A stretch of DNA of 64,000 bases, taken from NCBI GenBank assembly GCA_000165345.1, contig CM000435.1, positions 384,001 to 448,000 on the forward strand, given 5' to 3'. Shown here piece after piece: positions 2,375 to 46,830 of this stretch (position 1 is its first letter; every line of letters begins with the position of its first letter). A program made the position numbers and the translations under genes. The notes under the pieces were generated by a model. The model had not been told where the DNA came from and did not search any database. It saw only the letters and a program-made list of their open reading frames with translations.

Positions 2375-2624
2375 AATTCTTTTTTGTATTTATTCTTCCT
2401 CTTCTTTACCTTTCCTCCACCTTTTTTTTAAAATTCAACTGTTTCGTTGAAATTTGAAAAATTAATTAATTTTCAAGCATTGAAAATTTATTAATTTTTC
2501 TATTTAACTACTTCTTTCAATTTCAAAGAATTGTCTTTGAAAACTTTTGTGTGTTTTACATATCAATGTTTTTTTGTTATCTATTCACATTTTCCTACAT
2601 TATTCTAGTCAAGGCATACAATAC

Positions 2625-2647
2625 TTTTGGCGGGAATATTGGCGCCA
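2625..2647. promoter_or_regulatory. Tandem E2F-like sites TTTTGGCGGGAA and TTGGCGCCA, 255-275 bp upstream of the minus-strand gene that starts at 2374.
   Basis: ttttggcgggaatattggcgccatg. Confidence 0.45.
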
Positions 2648-2774: not shown

Positions 2775-4167
2775 TTATGGGTGGAGTAGATTAAATTGGT
2801 AAGAAATGATATAGTTTAGAGCAGTAATAAAAAGCTGCATGTATGTATGTATGCATGCATGCATGCAAATAATAGTATTGTTAAATTAGGAAAGGCTTTC
2901 TTTGATTTTTATTTTTTGAATTTTTCCTGTCATTAATAATTTTGGTACACTAATAAGTAATAGATATTGTAGGAAGGTAGCAAAAACATAAGTTAGGGTG
3001 AAATGAGGAGAAAAGAAAGGATTAGACTTACTTGTTGAAGTTTAGTTCTAACCTCAATATTTTGAGGTTCTATTGTTGCAGCTTTGTATAGGTCTATTCT
3101 GGCTTCATCCGGATCATCGAGTTTGAGATATGATGATGCTCTAAGATAGAGAGCTTTGACATTATTCTAAAAAAAGTTGAGTTTTATGAATTGTTAAGTA
3201 TATATTTGAGTAAGACTTACTTTGTCTAATTTCAGGGTTTCTGTACAGTATTTAAGAACGGATTTGTACTCTTGAAGTTTGATCATACAGCTAGATGAGT
3301 AATAAATAATTTAAGTAATATGAAAAAAAGGTTAACTTACTTAGAGATATTAAGGAGTACAGAAATTTTGATAGGTTTTGAGTCATTTTGTTGTTCAGAG
3401 GTCCATTCTTCAAAGTTATCGAGATATTGGATAGAGTTTTCATAGTGAATCTTTGCAGTTTGATAATCTCCAAGGTTGTAATAATGGTTTCCAAGATTCT
3501 TAGAATCCAGAGAGAGTTGCATTCTTTGTATTGGAGAAGTAAAGACTTTTTTTGTGCTTGTGACAATATCTGGAACCTGATCCTTTTTGGTTATAGAAAG
3601 GAGTTCGACTATGATCTGGATGATTTTAAAAGGTGAGTAGTAATTATAATAGATTATAGCAATAAGGTTATTGTGGAGGAAAAATTCACTCCAAAATCAT
3701 CTCTCAAAGTAACTTACTTGAAAATTCTTAAGACAACTTTCCTCATGTTTACTTGAATCTGAGCCAATTTCTGTGCTAAAAGATGATATCTCTGAAACAA
3801 AATTTGGATCTGAGTTTTCCAAGTTTGTAATACATATAGATTCTCCTACATTGATTCCACATATCTTCTGCTCAATCTGTGGGTCAACTACACCAGATCC
3901 AATTACAAAGCTATATTCAATCTCATTTCGAACTTAAGTAGGAAAAATGGTATTGAATACAAAATAACAAAATGAGATTAATTGTTTGGAAAAGAGAATG
4001 AGTAAAAATCTTTGTAATAAATATGAACCTCCAGAGCTTTTACATTTAAACTTACCATTTGGAATTTCGGAAATGAGTGGATGATCTTTCAGAATGGTCT
4101 TGTACTTAATATTTACCAAGTCCCCAGTCTCAGGCATCCCATTATTAGGATTCTGCTCTAAAGTCAT
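2775..4167 (-). CDS. FKBP-type immunophilin with a degenerate PPIase domain, three TPR motifs and a C-terminal hydrophobic tail anchor. The architecture is FKBP38/FKBP8-like. Six-exon model: 4167..4056, 3932..3718, 3615..~3341, 3290..3221, 3166..3032, 2834..2775.
   Basis: Exon 1 reads MTLEQNPNNGMPETGDLVNIKYKTILKDH, an FKBP GDxVxxxY-like motif. Exon 2 reads EYSFVIGSGVVDPQIEQKICGINVGES. Exons 3-5 hold TPR-like motifs: LGNHYYNLGDYQTAKIHYENSIQ, CMIKLQEYKSVLKYCTETLKLDKNNVKALYLRASSYLKLDDPDEARIDLYKAATIEPQN. Exon 6 encodes LFITALNYIISYQFNLLHP followed by a stop. Every intron begins GTAAGT and ends AG in phase. The model is hand-built and the exon ends may be off by 1-2 nt. Confidence 0.5.
2837..2868. 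repeat. Tetranucleotide microsatellite (ATGT)3(ATGC)4, which is an array of overlapping TGCATGCA motifs.
   Basis: The + strand reads gcatgtatgtatgtatgcatgcatgcatgcaaat. The repeat lies inside intron 5, at the acceptor, of the FKBP38-like gene. It is also about 470 bp upstream of the minus-strand gene that starts at 2374. Confidence 0.8.
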
Positions 4168-4335: not shown

Positions 4336-4363
4336 TGCCCGCCTGGTCAAATCTTTTGGCGGG
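4336..4363. promoter_or_regulatory. CCCGCC plus TTTTGGCGGG in the 279-bp bidirectional spacer between the FKBP38-like gene and NOB1.
   Basis: cattgcccgcctggtcaaatcttttggcgggttc. Confidence 0.45.
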
Positions 4364-6383: not shown

Positions 6384-8595
6384 ATGACTACAGAACCAGA
6401 GGTAAAAGAACAAGTCCTTTCAAAAAAGGCATTGAAAAAGCAAGAAAAACAAGCACTTAAAGAAGCTAAAAAGGCAGAGGCAAAGAGCAATCAGCAGCAA
6501 CAACAGCAATCAGTTCATTGGAGTTCAGTTATTGTACATTCAACTGAGGCATCTCCATATGGAGTAATTCCTTTTAATTGCAAAATTGAGAACAGGACTT
6601 TTTCAAAGATTAAGGAATTGAATTCTAACCAGAAAGGTGAGAAAATCTGGTTAAGAGGTAGAATTACGGAGTCCAGATGTAAAGGATCTTTAGGATTTGT
6701 ACTGCTCAGACAAACTTTCTATAGACTACAATTAGTTGTTGATGCTAATAATGGTAGTTCTAAGGAAATGATTAAATGGCTTGGATGCCTTCCAATTGAG
6801 AGTATGATCGATGTATATGGCACTATAGTAGTTCCAGAAACTCCAGTGGTTTCATCAACACAAGATATAGAGGTTTTAGTTGAAAGAGTTTACTGTGTCT
6901 CATCGGCTTGCAGTGAATTACCTTTCCAATTAAAAGATGCTAATAGGGTTGAAACTGAGGATGAGGATTCCACAATTATTAAAGTTCTACAAGATGTCAG
7001 ACTGGACAACAGAGTATTGGACTTGAGAACTTATTTGAGTCAGGCAATATTCAGAATTCAATCGGAAGTATGCAGATTGCTTAGGGAATTCCTCATAGAA
7101 AGAGAATTCATTGAGATTCATACTCCCAAACTTTTACCAGGTGCTTCCGAAAGTGGTGCCACTGTATTCAAAGTAGACTACTTCTCAAATACAGCTTGCT
7201 TAGCACAGTCACCTCAACTCCATAAACAAATGTCAATTTGTGGAGATTTAGAAAGAGTCTTTGAAATTGGTCCTGTTTTCAGAGCAGAAAATTCAAATAC
7301 TCACAGACATTTATGTGAGTTTGTTGGAGTTGATATTGAAATGAACATTGAAAATACTTATCATGAGTTGGTTGACGTTTTCGACGCTATGTTTAGACAT
7401 ATATTCCAAGGAATCAATACTCATTGCAAGAATGAATTACTTATTGTCTCGGAATATAATCCATTTACTCCTTTCGTCATTTCAGAAAAGACTCCACGTC
7501 TTACTTTTGAAGAAGGATGTAATCTCCTTAAGGAGGCAGGCGCTGAAATTCCAGAAGATCTGTCTGATTTTGATATTTCCACAGAGCAGGAAAGATTACT
7601 TGGTAAGTTCCATACTAAGAATTTTCTAGTAAGATTGAAAAGGGCAGGATTTGAGAAGAGCGGACATAATTTTAAATGTTATTGGACTTGAATTTCAAAT
7701 CCGTAGTTCTTTCTCATTCCTTTTGCTTATTTCATCTTACTATGATATTATTATCTATCAATTGATAATATTATAAACCTTTTTGAATATATTTAATTAT
7801 AACTAACCTAAATCATTAATTTCCTATTTAGGTTCTATTGTCAAGGAAAAATACAACTCAGATTTCTATATGATGCTTAAATATCCACTCAAAGTGAGAC
7901 CTTTTTACACAATGCCTGACTTTGATGAACCAGAGGTAAGTTAATCTTTTATTTTGCCTCCCAAGAAATATAGAAAGCTTGAAAGTATAAAATAGAGAGA
8001 AGAAACAAGGGGATTTAGGGATTTTAAGGGAAAATTGAAGATTTGCTTTCTTATTGAGGGATGATGATTGTTCATTCACCCATAGCCTGTAAACTCAAAC
8101 GTGTATTTGCACATGCGTGTAGATACAGCTACGTTTGAACCCTTGATGACAACTTTTCATGCATCACCAACTGACCTCAATATAGCTCTTCCCCATTTTC
8201 CTATACTTCCTCTACCCGCTTTTCCTCCCTTTTACTTCTCTTAGGAGCAATATAGACAGCTTGGGAGGCGTTCCCGCTTTTACATGCAAATAATTACCGC
8301 CAATTTCCCCACATTTTAGAAATGGTCCAATTCTTTTGACTTCTTTATGAGAGGAGAAGAAATATTAAGTGGAGCACAGAGAGTACATGATTACGATTTA
8401 TTAGTAAAAAGGTGCCAAGAGTGCGGTGTTTCAGAACATTCACTTAGAGACTACTTGAACTCATTCAAGCTCGGCGCTCCTCCCCATGGTGGATGTGGAA
8501 TTGGGCTTGAAAGAGTCATTATGCTCTTTTTGAATCTTGGAAATATCAGGAAGTCTTCAATGTTTCCTCGTGATCCAAAGAGACTTAGTCCATAA
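6384..8595 (+). CDS. DARS: Cytoplasmic aspartyl-tRNA synthetase of class IIb. Three exons: 6384..7602, 7832..7935, 8320..8595.
   Basis: The N-terminal K-rich and poly-Q extension is followed by an anticodon-binding OB fold. Class II motifs are present: [15 protein letters not shown], then in exon 2 [14 protein letters not shown], then in exon 3 [22 protein letters not shown]...[15 protein letters not shown]. The introns begin GTAAGT and end TTTAG. Phases are consistent at 1/1 and 0/0. Confidence 0.85.
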
Positions 8596-21626: not shown

Positions 21627-22297
21627 ATTTACATCTTCCCCATAGCTGTTATTTTCATAATAGATCTGGTTGTTGTATAANNTGCCCGAACTAAATTATT
21701 TCATTGAAGTNNTTCTCATTTTCTCGAGGGAAAACGTAATCAGGAATAGCATCCTCCTCCATTCTAAACTGGTTATCTTTCTTCATTATAAATAGGATCG
21801 GAAAGCTTCATAGAAATCTCAAAAGAATCCATCGTACTGCCACAATCAATATTTGAAGACATTTTCCCCCATCAACCTTTTAACCTCTATTAATATTAAT
21901 TAATAAATGTGAATATTAATTAAATTTCAGCTTCTATAAAGGCTATACTATTCTTAATACCAAAATACTTTGTACTTCGTTTCTTATATGCTTTTTACTA
22001 AGATCCCAAAAACATACATATGCATTTATAAATGTATATTTAATGTTAATTAAAACTATACTTCAATTCCATCAACACCAATAATTTTGAGGAGTAACTA
22101 GATTTAACACAAAATTTAAATTGTGAAGAATCTAACTAAGTCTGTGTTTTTACTCCTTATTTTTTCTTGGTTCTCAAAAAACTTTAATCCATATACCTTT
22201 GACTTTTTTGCCAAGCAACCTATTCTCCTCCCACGGCGCTTACATGACTAGACAAACTTAAATAGTAAGTAATATTCAAATTAACTTGATATTGTTC

Positions 22298-46804: not shown

Positions 46805-46830
46805 CTTTCCCGCATATTTGCATGCATGCA
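46805..46830. promoter_or_regulatory. Composite TTTCCCGC plus TTTGCATGCATGCA element in the divergent H2B/ThrRS spacer.
   Basis: ctttcccgcatatttgcatgcatgcaggc. Confidence 0.45.

What the first reader, a model, noticed from the sequence alone, without database searches (positions are those of the whole stretch)
2775..4167. An intron-rich FKBP38-like tail-anchored immunophilin, with its last acceptor inside a microsatellite
The model has six exons in a locus where most genes are intronless. It combines a degenerate FKBP domain, three TPR motifs and a C-terminal single TM segment, as in FKBP8/FKBP38. The final exon encodes only the tail anchor, LFITALNYIISYQFNLLHP. Its AG acceptor is the last unit of the (ATGT)n(ATGC)n repeat, so repeat-length changes could affect splicing.
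Basis: partly seen in the sequence, partly recalled or inferred. Interest (0 to 1): 0.5.

Follow-up and report, generated by a model that had tools for sequence, protein, structure and literature searches.

The report
Annotated Cryptosporidium FKBP-TPR gene, no tail anchor
This is an already annotated six-exon Cryptosporidium parvum gene for a soluble FKBP-like/TPR co-chaperone-type protein; the proposed membrane "tail-anchor" exon spliced from inside a microsatellite is not real, because the true last exon lies upstream and the microsatellite sits in the 3' untranslated/intergenic DNA.

Summary
The window is Cryptosporidium parvum chromosome 7. On the minus strand, 4167..2881, lies a six-exon gene. 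All five donors are GTAAGT. Its 291-aa product matches the GenBank protein "putative peptidylprolyl isomerase" (QOY40465.1 and others) exactly.

The last exon is wrong. The real exon 6 is 2949..2881 and encodes CTKIINDRKNSKNKNQRKPFLI*. It follows the first AG after an 82-nt intron. It is conserved without indels in seven Cryptosporidium species. It continues the homology to helix 7 of PfFKBP35 and FKBP52.

It is frameshifted in C. meleagridis and has no AG in C. ubiquitum or C. canis. It is too polar for a membrane anchor (Kyte-Doolittle (KD) mean 0.88, against 2.2 for FKBP8). An ORF like it arises by chance in 40% of shuffles.

The microsatellite is real and varies in length. It is a tandem run of the known ApiAP2 motif TGCATGCA in the spacer upstream of the next gene. 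The finding is ordinary and already annotated; the novel claim is refuted by comparative evidence.

The parts
4056..4167 (-). Exon 1 (ATG at 4167; 112 nt). Encodes the N-terminus and first strand of the FKBP-like domain.
   Evidence: The donor GTAAGT starts at 4055. The spliced product equals annotated protein P0005.
3718..3932 (-). Exon 2 (215 nt). Encodes the rest of the FKBP-like core and an acidic/Ser-rich insertion.
   Evidence: It has an AG acceptor and a GTAAGT donor at 3717. Pfam FKBP_C matches residues 12-72 below threshold.
3341..3615 (-). Exon 3 (275 nt). Encodes the last FKBP-like strand (IIVELLSI), the linker, TPR1 and the start of TPR2.
3221..3290 (-). Exon 4 (70 nt). Encodes part of TPR2.
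3032..3166 (-). Exon 5 (135 nt). Encodes TPR3 and the start of helix 7, ending ...RTKLQQ.
2950..3031 (-). Intron 5 (82 nt). It runs GTAAGT ... CTAAC ... TTATTAG, and its acceptor is the first AG after a 75-nt AG-free tract.
   Evidence: It diverges with indels between species while both flanking exons stay gap-free.
2881..2949 (-). True exon 6. Encodes CTKIINDRKNSKNKNQRKPFLI plus the stop TAA (2883-2881). This is the continuation of TPR capping helix 7 and a basic tail.
   Evidence: It matches the annotated 291-aa protein exactly. It has 0 gap columns against the four closest species, with 83% identity to C. ubiquitum and 70% to C. canis. Equivalent exons exist in C. felis and C. ryanae. It aligns to PfFKBP35 ..YELCVNKLKEARKK and FKBP52 ..LAVCQQRIR. 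The AF2 helix 261-285 spans the junction.
2836..2867 (.). (TGCA)n/(TACA)n microsatellite, 14 nt downstream of the stop codon. It holds three overlapping copies of the palindromic ApiAP2 motif TGCATGCA.
   Evidence: TRF. TGCATGCA occurs 16 times in the window against 0.8 expected. The motif is documented as AP2_1, BGCATGCAH (PMC3734150). It is one unit shorter in C. hominis and C. meleagridis, shorter still in C. ubiquitum and C. canis, and absent in C. felis and C. ryanae.
2775..2834 (-). This is non-coding 3' UTR or intergenic DNA.
   Evidence: It lies after the conserved stop codon. C. meleagridis has 2-nt and 1-nt deletions here. The AG is absent in C. ubiquitum and C. canis, where identity is 57% and 43%. 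Hydropathy is too low for a TM segment. The chance expectation is 40%.
2626..2647 (.). Two E2F-type motifs (TTTGGCGGGAA at 2626-2636, TGGCGCCA at 2640-2647). They lie in the promoter region of the next minus-strand gene, whose ATG is at 2374.
   Evidence: Read directly from the sequence. Both motifs are conserved in five species. The motif families are documented in PMC3734150.

Best explanation
The locus is the already annotated Cryptosporidium parvum chromosome-7 gene for a 291-aa soluble immunophilin-like protein. Its parts are an N-terminal degenerate FKBP-like domain (about residues 12-119), three TPR motifs (about 137-256), a long capping helix 7 (261-285) and a short basic C-terminal tail.

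The gene has six exons on the minus strand: 4167-4056, 3932-3718, 3615-3341, 3290-3221, 3166-3032 and 2949-2881. The last intron is 82 nt and ends at the first AG after the donor. The stop codon is at 2883-2881. There is no transmembrane tail.

Inferred function: a TPR-mediated adaptor or co-chaperone for the C-terminal EEVD peptides of Hsp90/Hsp70, like PfFKBP35, FKBP51/52 and AIP. Its FKBP-like domain probably has no prolyl-isomerase or FK506-binding activity and serves as a protein-interaction module.

The microsatellite 14 nt after the stop codon is a tandem expansion of the ApiAP2 target motif TGCATGCA. It lies in the 508-bp spacer that also carries the E2F promoter motifs of the next gene. 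It has no role in splicing of this gene.
For: Shown:
- The spliced 291-aa product matches GenBank proteins QOY40465.1, WKS78833.1, WRK33318.1 and KAL5367461.1 exactly. C. hominis and C. meleagridis have 291-aa orthologues.
- The C. parvum IOWA-ATCC annotation that QOY40465.1 appears to come from (neighbouring QOY proteins carry CPATCC locus tags) reports its introns as 100% supported by RNA-seq (PMC8744675).
- Exon 6 is conserved and gap-free against the four closest species, while intron 5 and the downstream DNA accumulate indels. Genomic DNA of C. canis, C. felis and C. ryanae encodes the same C-x-x-(I/V)-(I/L)-x-x-(R/K)-(K/R)-N exon after a short intron.
- Homology to the PfFKBP35 TPR domain (2fbn, E 1.9e-19) and FKBP52 (E 2e-17) runs across the exon 5/6 junction and includes a conserved Cys.
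- The AF2 model has 7 helices, and helix 7 spans the junction.
- The full model matches FKBP52 FK2-TPR, FKBP38, FKBP51 and XAP2 over about 285 columns.
- Every accepted acceptor is the first AG after a 43-75-nt AG-free tract.
- Only 2 of 14 FKBP12 pocket residues (Y26, V55) are retained.
- Clamp residues K148, N152, N198 and K228 are retained.

Inferred: Hsp90/Hsp70 binding and loss of PPIase activity.
Against: - I could not see transcript reads directly. A search for either spliced junction in the JGI metagenome collection found nothing. Transcript support therefore rests on the published statement about the annotation.
- The FKBP assignment of the N-terminal domain is below the curated threshold (Pfam 17.8-19.2 bits against 21.1). 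The structure models are of low confidence (pLDDT 61 for the full protein, 46 for the domain alone).
- The fifth carboxylate-clamp residue (FKBP52 R358) is Leu232 in every Cryptosporidium orthologue in alignment A1. EEVD binding is therefore not assured.
Confidence: 0.92

Rival explanations
1. The last intron is 197 nt and ends at the AG on the edge of the microsatellite (2836-2835). The final exon 2834-2775 encodes a C-terminal tail anchor, making an FKBP38/FKBP8-like membrane-anchored immunophilin whose splicing depends on repeat length.
For: The AG exists and is in phase 0 with exon 5. The 19-codon ORF is intact in C. parvum and C. hominis, with 60/60 nt identical. A TTAAC lies 45 nt upstream, and the preceding AG-free tract is 59 nt. 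The architecture of one FKBP-like domain plus three TPRs resembles FKBP38, and a review calls PfFKBP35 'a putative FKBP38 homologue' (PMC9332011).
Against: - The exact 288-aa product is not in a 15-billion-protein collection, while the 291-aa alternative is annotated in four C. parvum assemblies.
- Splicing would have to skip four upstream AGs, including the conserved TTATTAG acceptor. The last 30 nt are only 50% pyrimidine.
- The ORF is frameshifted in C. meleagridis. The AG is missing in C. ubiquitum and C. canis. C. felis and C. ryanae have no equivalent.
- The Kyte-Doolittle mean is 0.88 and the Hessa sum is +8.9, against 2.20 and +0.3 for the FKBP8 anchor.
- 40% of shuffles give an equivalent ORF.
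- This model would also delete the conserved helix-7 continuation.
Confidence: 0.02
2. A rare alternative isoform, found only in the C. parvum/C. hominis lineage, uses the microsatellite-edge AG or retains intron 5 (giving ...KLQQVSLILSFLLISP*). This would add a weakly hydrophobic C-terminus to a minority of the protein.
For: Both ORFs are open in C. parvum. Nothing I could run excludes low-level use of these sites.
Against: The curated annotation reports only three putatively alternatively spliced genes in the genome. Their identifiers (CPATCC_0027530, 0027960, 0035590) do not fall at this locus (CPATCC_00331xx-00333xx). There is no conservation beyond closely related species. Neither tail reaches TM-like hydrophobicity.
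Confidence: 0.04
3. The N-terminal domain is not FKBP-derived at all, and the protein is simply a TPR adaptor with an unrelated small beta-rich domain.
For: Pfam FKBP_C is below the gathering score. PDB profile hits to FKBP12 have E 0.5-2. The domain-only model has pLDDT 46 and no Foldseek hit better than E 0.2.
Against: - Four of five orthologues hit FKBP_C and no other plausible family.
- 7 of the 13 weak PDB hits are FKBPs. Nearly all of the top 50 Foldseek hits are FKBP folds.
- The secondary-structure order beta-beta-alpha-beta-(insert)-beta matches FKBP.
- The motifs PxxGD-V-hhY and the terminal h-VELL-h align with FKBP12 and FKBP35.
- Its nearest TPR relatives are all FKBP-TPR or Cyp-TPR immunophilins.
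Confidence: 0.1

Closest known systems
Plasmodium falciparum FKBP35 (PFL2275c; TPR domain PDB 2FBN)
   Same: A single N-terminal FKBP-type domain, three TPRs, an extended helix 7 and a basic C-terminal tail, with no TM segment. It is the best natural PDB sequence match (E 1.9e-19), and the match runs through the exon 5/6 junction with a conserved Cys. It is apicomplexan. It is reported to bind Hsp90 through its TPR domain (PMC9332011).
   Different: PfFKBP35 has a canonical, FK506-sensitive PPIase domain. The Cryptosporidium protein keeps only 2 of 14 pocket residues and has a roughly 30-residue acidic/Ser-rich insertion where the 80s loop would be. At the last clamp position, PfFKBP35 has K and Cryptosporidium has L.
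Human FKBP52/FKBP51 (FKBP4/FKBP5), FK2-TPR module
   Same: An inactive FKBP-like domain (FK2) directly precedes a three-TPR domain with a long helix 7. This is the best fold match (1p5q, E 6.4e-11, 286 columns). The TPR sequence match is E 2e-17.
   Different: The human proteins have an additional active FK1 domain. They also have the full clamp (R358), where this protein has L232.
Human FKBP38/FKBP8
   Same: One non-canonical FKBP domain plus three TPRs. Foldseek E 1.1e-9 to 5mgx.
   Different: FKBP8 ends in a strongly hydrophobic tail anchor (KD 2.20). This protein ends in a basic, polar tail (KD -1.47) and has no TM segment anywhere. Its TPR sequence similarity is about 10 orders of magnitude weaker than to FKBP35 or FKBP52 (E 1e-8).
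AIP/XAP2, AIPL1 and FKBPL (pseudo-PPIase TPR co-chaperones)
   Same: An FKBP-like domain that lacks PPIase residues and carries an insertion, followed by three TPRs and a C-terminal helix. PDB hits: AIPL1 E 1.7e-11; XAP2 Foldseek 5e-9. This is the closest analogy for how the protein probably works.
   Different: No specific orthology is shown. The insertion sits in a different place and has a different sequence. The clients of the Cryptosporidium protein are unknown.

Membership tests
FKBP8/FKBP38 (tail-anchored immunophilin) | C-terminal single transmembrane tail anchor | tested here: not met
The real C-terminus, CTKIINDRKNSKNKNQRKPFLI, has a Kyte-Doolittle mean of -1.47. The highest 19-residue window anywhere in the 291-aa protein is 0.81. 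That exon is not conserved.
FKBP8/FKBP38 (tail-anchored immunophilin) | One FKBP domain followed by three TPRs | tested here: met
   Pfam TPR hits and a sub-threshold FKBP_C hit. Foldseek to 5mgx gives E 1.1e-9 over 285 columns. This architecture is shared with FKBP35, AIP and FKBPL, so it is not diagnostic.
FKBP8/FKBP38 (tail-anchored immunophilin) | Closest sequence relationship is to FKBP8 rather than to other TPR immunophilins | tested here: not met
   phmmer against the PDB gives FKBP8 at E 1e-8, against PfFKBP35 at 1.9e-19, FKBP4 at 1.5e-17, Cyp40 at 2.8e-16 and FKBP5 at 2e-14.
FKBP8/FKBP38 (tail-anchored immunophilin) | Calmodulin-binding segment between the TPRs and the TM segment, which activates the FKBP domain | not testable with these tools
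   The basic tail RKNSKNKNQRK could be such a site, but no predictor or assay was available.
Pfam FKBP_C (PF00254), catalytic FKBP-type PPIase | Score at or above the Pfam gathering cutoff (21.1 bits) | tested here: not met
   17.8 bits for the full protein and 19.2 bits for the domain alone. Four of five orthologues hit, all below the cutoff or marginal.
Pfam FKBP_C (PF00254), catalytic FKBP-type PPIase | Conserved FK506/proline pocket (FKBP12 Y26, F36, D37, R42, F46, E54, V55, I56, W59, Y82, H87, I90, I91, F99) | tested here: not met
   Only Y26 and V55 are identical. D37 is S, W59 is I, Y82 is T and F99 is I (MAFFT alignment). The P0066-P0068 FK domains served as in-session controls and keep 7-9 of the 14 positions identical to FKBP12 (H87 and I90 differ in all three).
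TPR immunophilin co-chaperones of Hsp90/Hsp70 (FKBP35/51/52, Cyp40, AIP) | Three TPR motifs plus a capping helix 7 | tested here: met
   Pfam TPR_1, TPR_2 and TPR_8. AF2 helices: 137-156, 160-174, 182-205, 209-219, 224-237, 243-256, 261-285. Alignments to 2fbn and 1qz2 run through helix 7.
TPR immunophilin co-chaperones of Hsp90/Hsp70 (FKBP35/51/52, Cyp40, AIP) | Two-carboxylate clamp (K, N, N, K, R) that binds the EEVD C-terminus | tested here: inconclusive
   K148, N152, N198 and K228 are present. The position aligned to FKBP52 R358 is L232, and R233 is adjacent. YLRA is invariant in the five aligned Cryptosporidium sequences. PfFKBP35 has K at this position.
TPR immunophilin co-chaperones of Hsp90/Hsp70 (FKBP35/51/52, Cyp40, AIP) | Physical binding to Hsp90/Hsp70 | not testable with these tools
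   This needs a pull-down or ITC with C. parvum Hsp90/Hsp70 C-terminal peptides.

The most novel reading that the evidence does not exclude
Two things are mildly novel; the tail anchor is not one of them.

(a) Cryptosporidium's only FKBP-TPR protein is a pseudo-isomerase version of apicomplexan FKBP35. Its FK506 pocket is eroded, and one carboxylate-clamp Arg is replaced by Leu throughout the genus. The protein is absent from the 2004 annotation and from a 2024 inventory that lists only two FKBPs for the parasite. It would then be an AIP/FKBPL-like adaptor, not a drug-targetable PPIase.

(b) The microsatellite directly after its stop codon is a length-variable tandem array of the ApiAP2 site TGCATGCA. 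Repeat number could tune transcription of the downstream gene, or 3'-end formation of this one.
Probability: 0.35. Interest if true: 0.3.

Novelty: already known. Interest (0 to 1): 0.1.

Why it matters
It matters little beyond housekeeping. The gene and its exact six-exon structure are already in GenBank for several C. parvum, C. hominis and C. meleagridis assemblies. The striking claim, a tail-anchor exon whose acceptor lies in a microsatellite, does not survive comparative analysis.

There are some useful by-products:
- The gene is missing from published Cryptosporidium PPIase inventories, and it appears to be a non-catalytic FKBP35 relative. That is relevant to anyone considering FK506-type inhibitors against Cryptosporidium.
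- The GenBank models of the C. canis, C. felis and C. ryanae orthologues are mis-spliced at this same last intron and could be corrected.
- The microsatellite is a natural length-variable array of an ApiAP2 binding motif.

Tried and rejected
- **Tail-anchor model.** Rejected on exact-sequence look-up, seven-species comparison, hydropathy, splice-site context and chance expectation.
- **Intron-5 read-through (…VSLILSFLLISP*).** The tail is open but short, not hydrophobic enough, and not conserved.
- **Other internal AGs as acceptors.** They give EKFKK*, PFLI* or KAFPNLTILLFACMHAYIHTCSFLLLL*. None is supported.
- **Direct transcript evidence.** A degenerate pattern matching either spliced junction found nothing in JGI metagenome contigs. 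The protein has no Logan-derived (possibly cDNA) contigs.
- **Confirming the FKBP fold by structure prediction of the N-terminal domain alone.** The model was too poor (pLDDT 46). Its Foldseek hits are nearly all FKBP folds but not significant.
- **A PDB profile search with the N-terminal domain.** It gave only E 0.5-2 hits to FKBP12s.
- **First homology search.** It missed the C. parvum, C. hominis and C. meleagridis proteins. Their 90% cluster is represented by the 888-aa neighbouring gene product (P0006), linked through a fused C. meleagridis model (P0010, 1155 aa). This is a database artefact, not absence.
- **TGCATGCA conservation after the stop codon.** It holds in five species but not in C. 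felis or C. ryanae.
Full report
**Where we are.** The window is AT-rich (about 30-39% GC). It is packed with long single ORFs on both strands. Exact-sequence look-ups of six of these ORFs return Cryptosporidium parvum chromosome-7 proteins, such as Nob1/ART-4, the cgd7_1550 hypothetical protein, a DHHC palmitoyltransferase and DMC1. The finding therefore lies in C. parvum, a genome where about 10.8% of genes have introns. Intron-containing genes there have 2-10 exons (mean 2.6), and the mean intron is 99 bp (PMC4637869).

**The observation.**
- The gene runs on the minus strand from ATG 4167.
- Three-frame translation and motif searches give five introns. Each starts with GTAAGT and ends in AG.
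- A period-4 repeat lies at 2836-2867.
- On the minus strand it reads (TGCA)4(TACA)3TGCA followed by G. An AG therefore sits on its 3' edge, followed in phase 0 by LFITALNYIISYQFNLLHP*.

**Which last exon is real.** After the exon-5 donor (GTAAGT at 3031), the first AG downstream lies 82 nt away (TTATTAG, acceptor 2951-2950). A CTAAC precedes it by 42 nt. Splicing there gives CTKIINDRKNSKNKNQRKPFLI* (exon 2949-2881) and a 291-aa protein. Five lines of evidence decide for this exon.

1. **Annotation.** The 291-aa sequence is in the public collection as C. parvum 'putative peptidylprolyl isomerase' (QOY40465.1, WKS78833.1, WRK33318.1, KAL5367461.1). C. hominis and C. meleagridis have 291-aa orthologues. 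The QOY record appears to come from the IOWA-ATCC reannotation (neighbouring QOY proteins carry CPATCC locus tags). Its authors state that the introns are 100% supported by RNA-seq, and they list only three putatively alternatively spliced genes, none at this locus (PMC8744675).

2. **Comparative genomics.** I fetched the orthologous loci of C. ubiquitum, C. hominis, C. meleagridis and C. canis, and later C. ryanae and C. felis.
   - Exon 6 has no gap columns in the five-species alignment. It is 83% identical to C. ubiquitum and 70% to C. canis.
   - Intron 5 is only 60% and 37% identical to those species, with indels.
   - Genomic DNA encodes CTQIINDRKNSRKSEKKSPLLA* in C. canis, CTKVLNDRKNLQKSRRNLLTS* in C. 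felis and CNNIIMSKRNEKRTSSNKNAANKPAFQSKHQ* in C. ryanae. Each follows a short intron.
It lacks the AG in C. ubiquitum and C. canis, where identity is 57% and 43%.

3. **Homology beyond the genus.** The best natural PDB match is the TPR domain of Plasmodium falciparum FKBP35 (2fbn, E 1.9e-19). The alignment continues across the exon 5/6 junction...RTKLQQCTKIIND-RKN against ...RNSYELCVNKLKEARKK. FKBP52 aligns the same way...TQLAVCQQRIR, with the Cys conserved. In the AlphaFold model, helix 7 runs from residue 261 to 285, straight through the junction at 269/270.

4. **Splice-site context.** In all five accepted introns the acceptor is the first AG after a 43-75-nt AG-free tract. It has the least pyrimidine-rich upstream 30 nt of the set (0.50 pyrimidine, 0.23 T).

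5. **The 'anchor' is not an anchor.** Its 19-residue Kyte-Doolittle mean is 0.88 and its summed Hessa ΔG is +8.9 kcal/mol. The human FKBP8 anchor scores 2.20 and +0.3. In 403 of 1000 shuffles of the spacer, an AG is followed by a 15-30-codon ORF at least as hydrophobic.

A search for either spliced junction in JGI metagenome contigs found nothing. I could not inspect reads myself.

**What the protein is.**
- **TPR domain.** Pfam finds TPR_1, TPR_2 and TPR_8 with E 1e-8 to 1e-13.
- **FKBP_C.** It scores only 17.8 bits, or 19.2 on the isolated domain, against a gathering cutoff of 21.1. It hits four of five orthologues.
- **PDB profile search with the N-terminal domain.** This gives only marginal FKBP12 hits (E 0.5-2; 7 of 13 hits are FKBPs).
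- **Full-length AlphaFold model.** Its confidence is modest (pLDDT 61). The N-terminal secondary structure runs beta, beta, alpha, beta, insertion, beta, which is the FKBP order. Seven helices follow.
- **Foldseek on the full model.** It matches FKBP52 FK2-TPR (6.4e-11, 286 columns), FKBP38 (1.1e-9), FKBP51 and XAP2/AIP.
- **Domain-only model.** It was too poor (pLDDT 46) to give significant hits, although almost all of the top 50 are FKBP folds.
- **FKBP12 pocket.** Aligned with FKBP12 and three in-session FKBP-TPR proteins, only Y26 and V55 of the 14 pocket residues are kept. A roughly 30-residue acidic/Ser-rich insertion replaces the 80s loop.
- **TPR clamp.** It keeps K148, N152, N198 and K228, but has L232 where FKBP52 has R358. 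This is invariant in the five aligned Cryptosporidium sequences.

'Degenerate FKBP plus three TPRs' is therefore supported. PPIase activity is unlikely (inference). EEVD binding is plausible but unproven.

A profile search of the large protein database found only Cryptosporidium orthologues, then FKBP-TPR and FKBP-TPR-cyclophilin proteins with canonical FK domains. None has a C-terminal TM segment.

**Comparison with known families.** The protein works most like the TPR immunophilin co-chaperones.
- In sequence, it is closest to apicomplexan FKBP35.
- In having a non-catalytic FKBP-like module, it is closest to FKBP52-FK2, AIP/XAP2, AIPL1 and FKBPL.
The defining tail anchor was tested and is absent, and sequence similarity to FKBP8 is about ten orders of magnitude weaker than to FKBP35 or FKBP52.

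**The microsatellite.** It lies 14 nt after the stop codon, in the 508-bp spacer before the next minus-strand gene (ATG at 2374; the cgd7_1510 orthologue, judged from the neighbouring locus tags).
- It contains three overlapping copies of TGCATGCA. That octamer occurs 16 times in the window against 0.8 expected.
- The motif is the documented AP2_1 motif (BGCATGCAH) of C. parvum promoters (PMC3734150).
- Copies of the motif sit at the same place in C. hominis, C. meleagridis, C. ubiquitum and C. canis, with different repeat lengths. They are absent from C. felis and C. ryanae.
- Two E2F-type motifs (2626-2647), conserved in the five aligned species with a single substitution in C. meleagridis, lie further along the spacer.

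The repeat is best read as a cis-regulatory or neutral 3'-flank element, not a splice signal.

**Novelty and verdict.** The gene model is already public. A 2024 review of protozoan PPIases still lists only two FKBPs for C. parvum, cgd7_210 and cgd6_2690 (PMC11357558). No Iowa II (EAK or XP) accession carries this protein. The gene has therefore been overlooked in the PPIase literature, but it is not new. Interest is low.

Noticed in passing
window 2836-2867; also 5982, 14155, 22416, 25157, 35574, 37652, 37833, 41955, 45498, 46819-46830, 50008, 57204: The palindromic ApiAP2 motif TGCATGCA occurs 16 times in the window, against 0.8 expected. Judged against the ORF list, most copies fall between long ORFs. 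The microsatellite after the FKBP-TPR stop codon is a tandem array of this motif. Copies are retained at the same position in C. hominis, C. meleagridis, C. ubiquitum and C. canis, with varying repeat number, but not in C. felis or C. ryanae.
   Followed up: partly
window 2555-2647 (minus-strand promoter of the gene starting at 2374): E2F-type motifs TTTGGCGGGAA (2626-2636) and TGGCGCCA (2640-2647), plus blocks such as TTGACTAGAATAA and ATATGTAAAACACACAA, are conserved out to C. canis. The surrounding spacer is not. This is probably the core promoter or transcription start of the cgd7_1510 orthologue. Another GGCGGG motif lies at about 4353-4362, between this gene and the divergent Nob1 gene.
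   Followed up: partly
L004 (C. canis), L005 (C. ryanae), L006 (C. felis); proteins P0002, P0003, P0063, P0064: The GenBank models of these orthologues are mis-spliced. P0002 uses a distant final exon inside the next gene's promoter. P0003 and P0063 retain introns. P0064 is truncated and frameshifted. In each genome the conserved C-T/N-x-I/V-I/L-x-x-R/K-K/R-N last exon is present and unannotated.
   Followed up: partly
protein cluster of P0005; L003 4203-6294: The 90% cluster that holds the C. parvum, C. hominis and C. meleagridis FKBP-TPR proteins is represented by an 888-aa protein (P0006). That protein is the product of the neighbouring downstream gene. The link is a fused 1155-aa C. meleagridis model (P0010). 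This explains why the first homology search missed the identical C. parvum protein.
   Followed up: partly
protein residues 228-233 (window exon 5, about 3140-3157 minus strand): The carboxylate-clamp arginine of TPR co-chaperones (FKBP52 R358) is Leu in all five aligned Cryptosporidium orthologues (KA[LM]YLRA). The four other clamp residues are kept. This may mean altered or lost EEVD binding.
   Followed up: partly
window 6384-7691 (+): The aspartate-tRNA ligase ORF is 435 aa here. Curated orthologues are 527-575 aa. This neighbouring gene therefore also has at least one upstream exon and intron, and the locus is not entirely intronless.
   Followed up: no
window 21681-21682, 21711-21712, 22864, 22920, 22922, 22967: The window contains eight non-ACGT (ambiguity) characters.
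   Followed up: no
literature (PMC11357558): A 2024 inventory of protozoan PPIases lists only two FKBPs for C. parvum and C. hominis, cgd7_210 and cgd6_2690 (both classed as nucleolar). This FKBP-TPR gene is absent from it. It was presumably not in the gene set the review surveyed (CryptoDB release 52, C. parvum IOWA II).
   Followed up: yes
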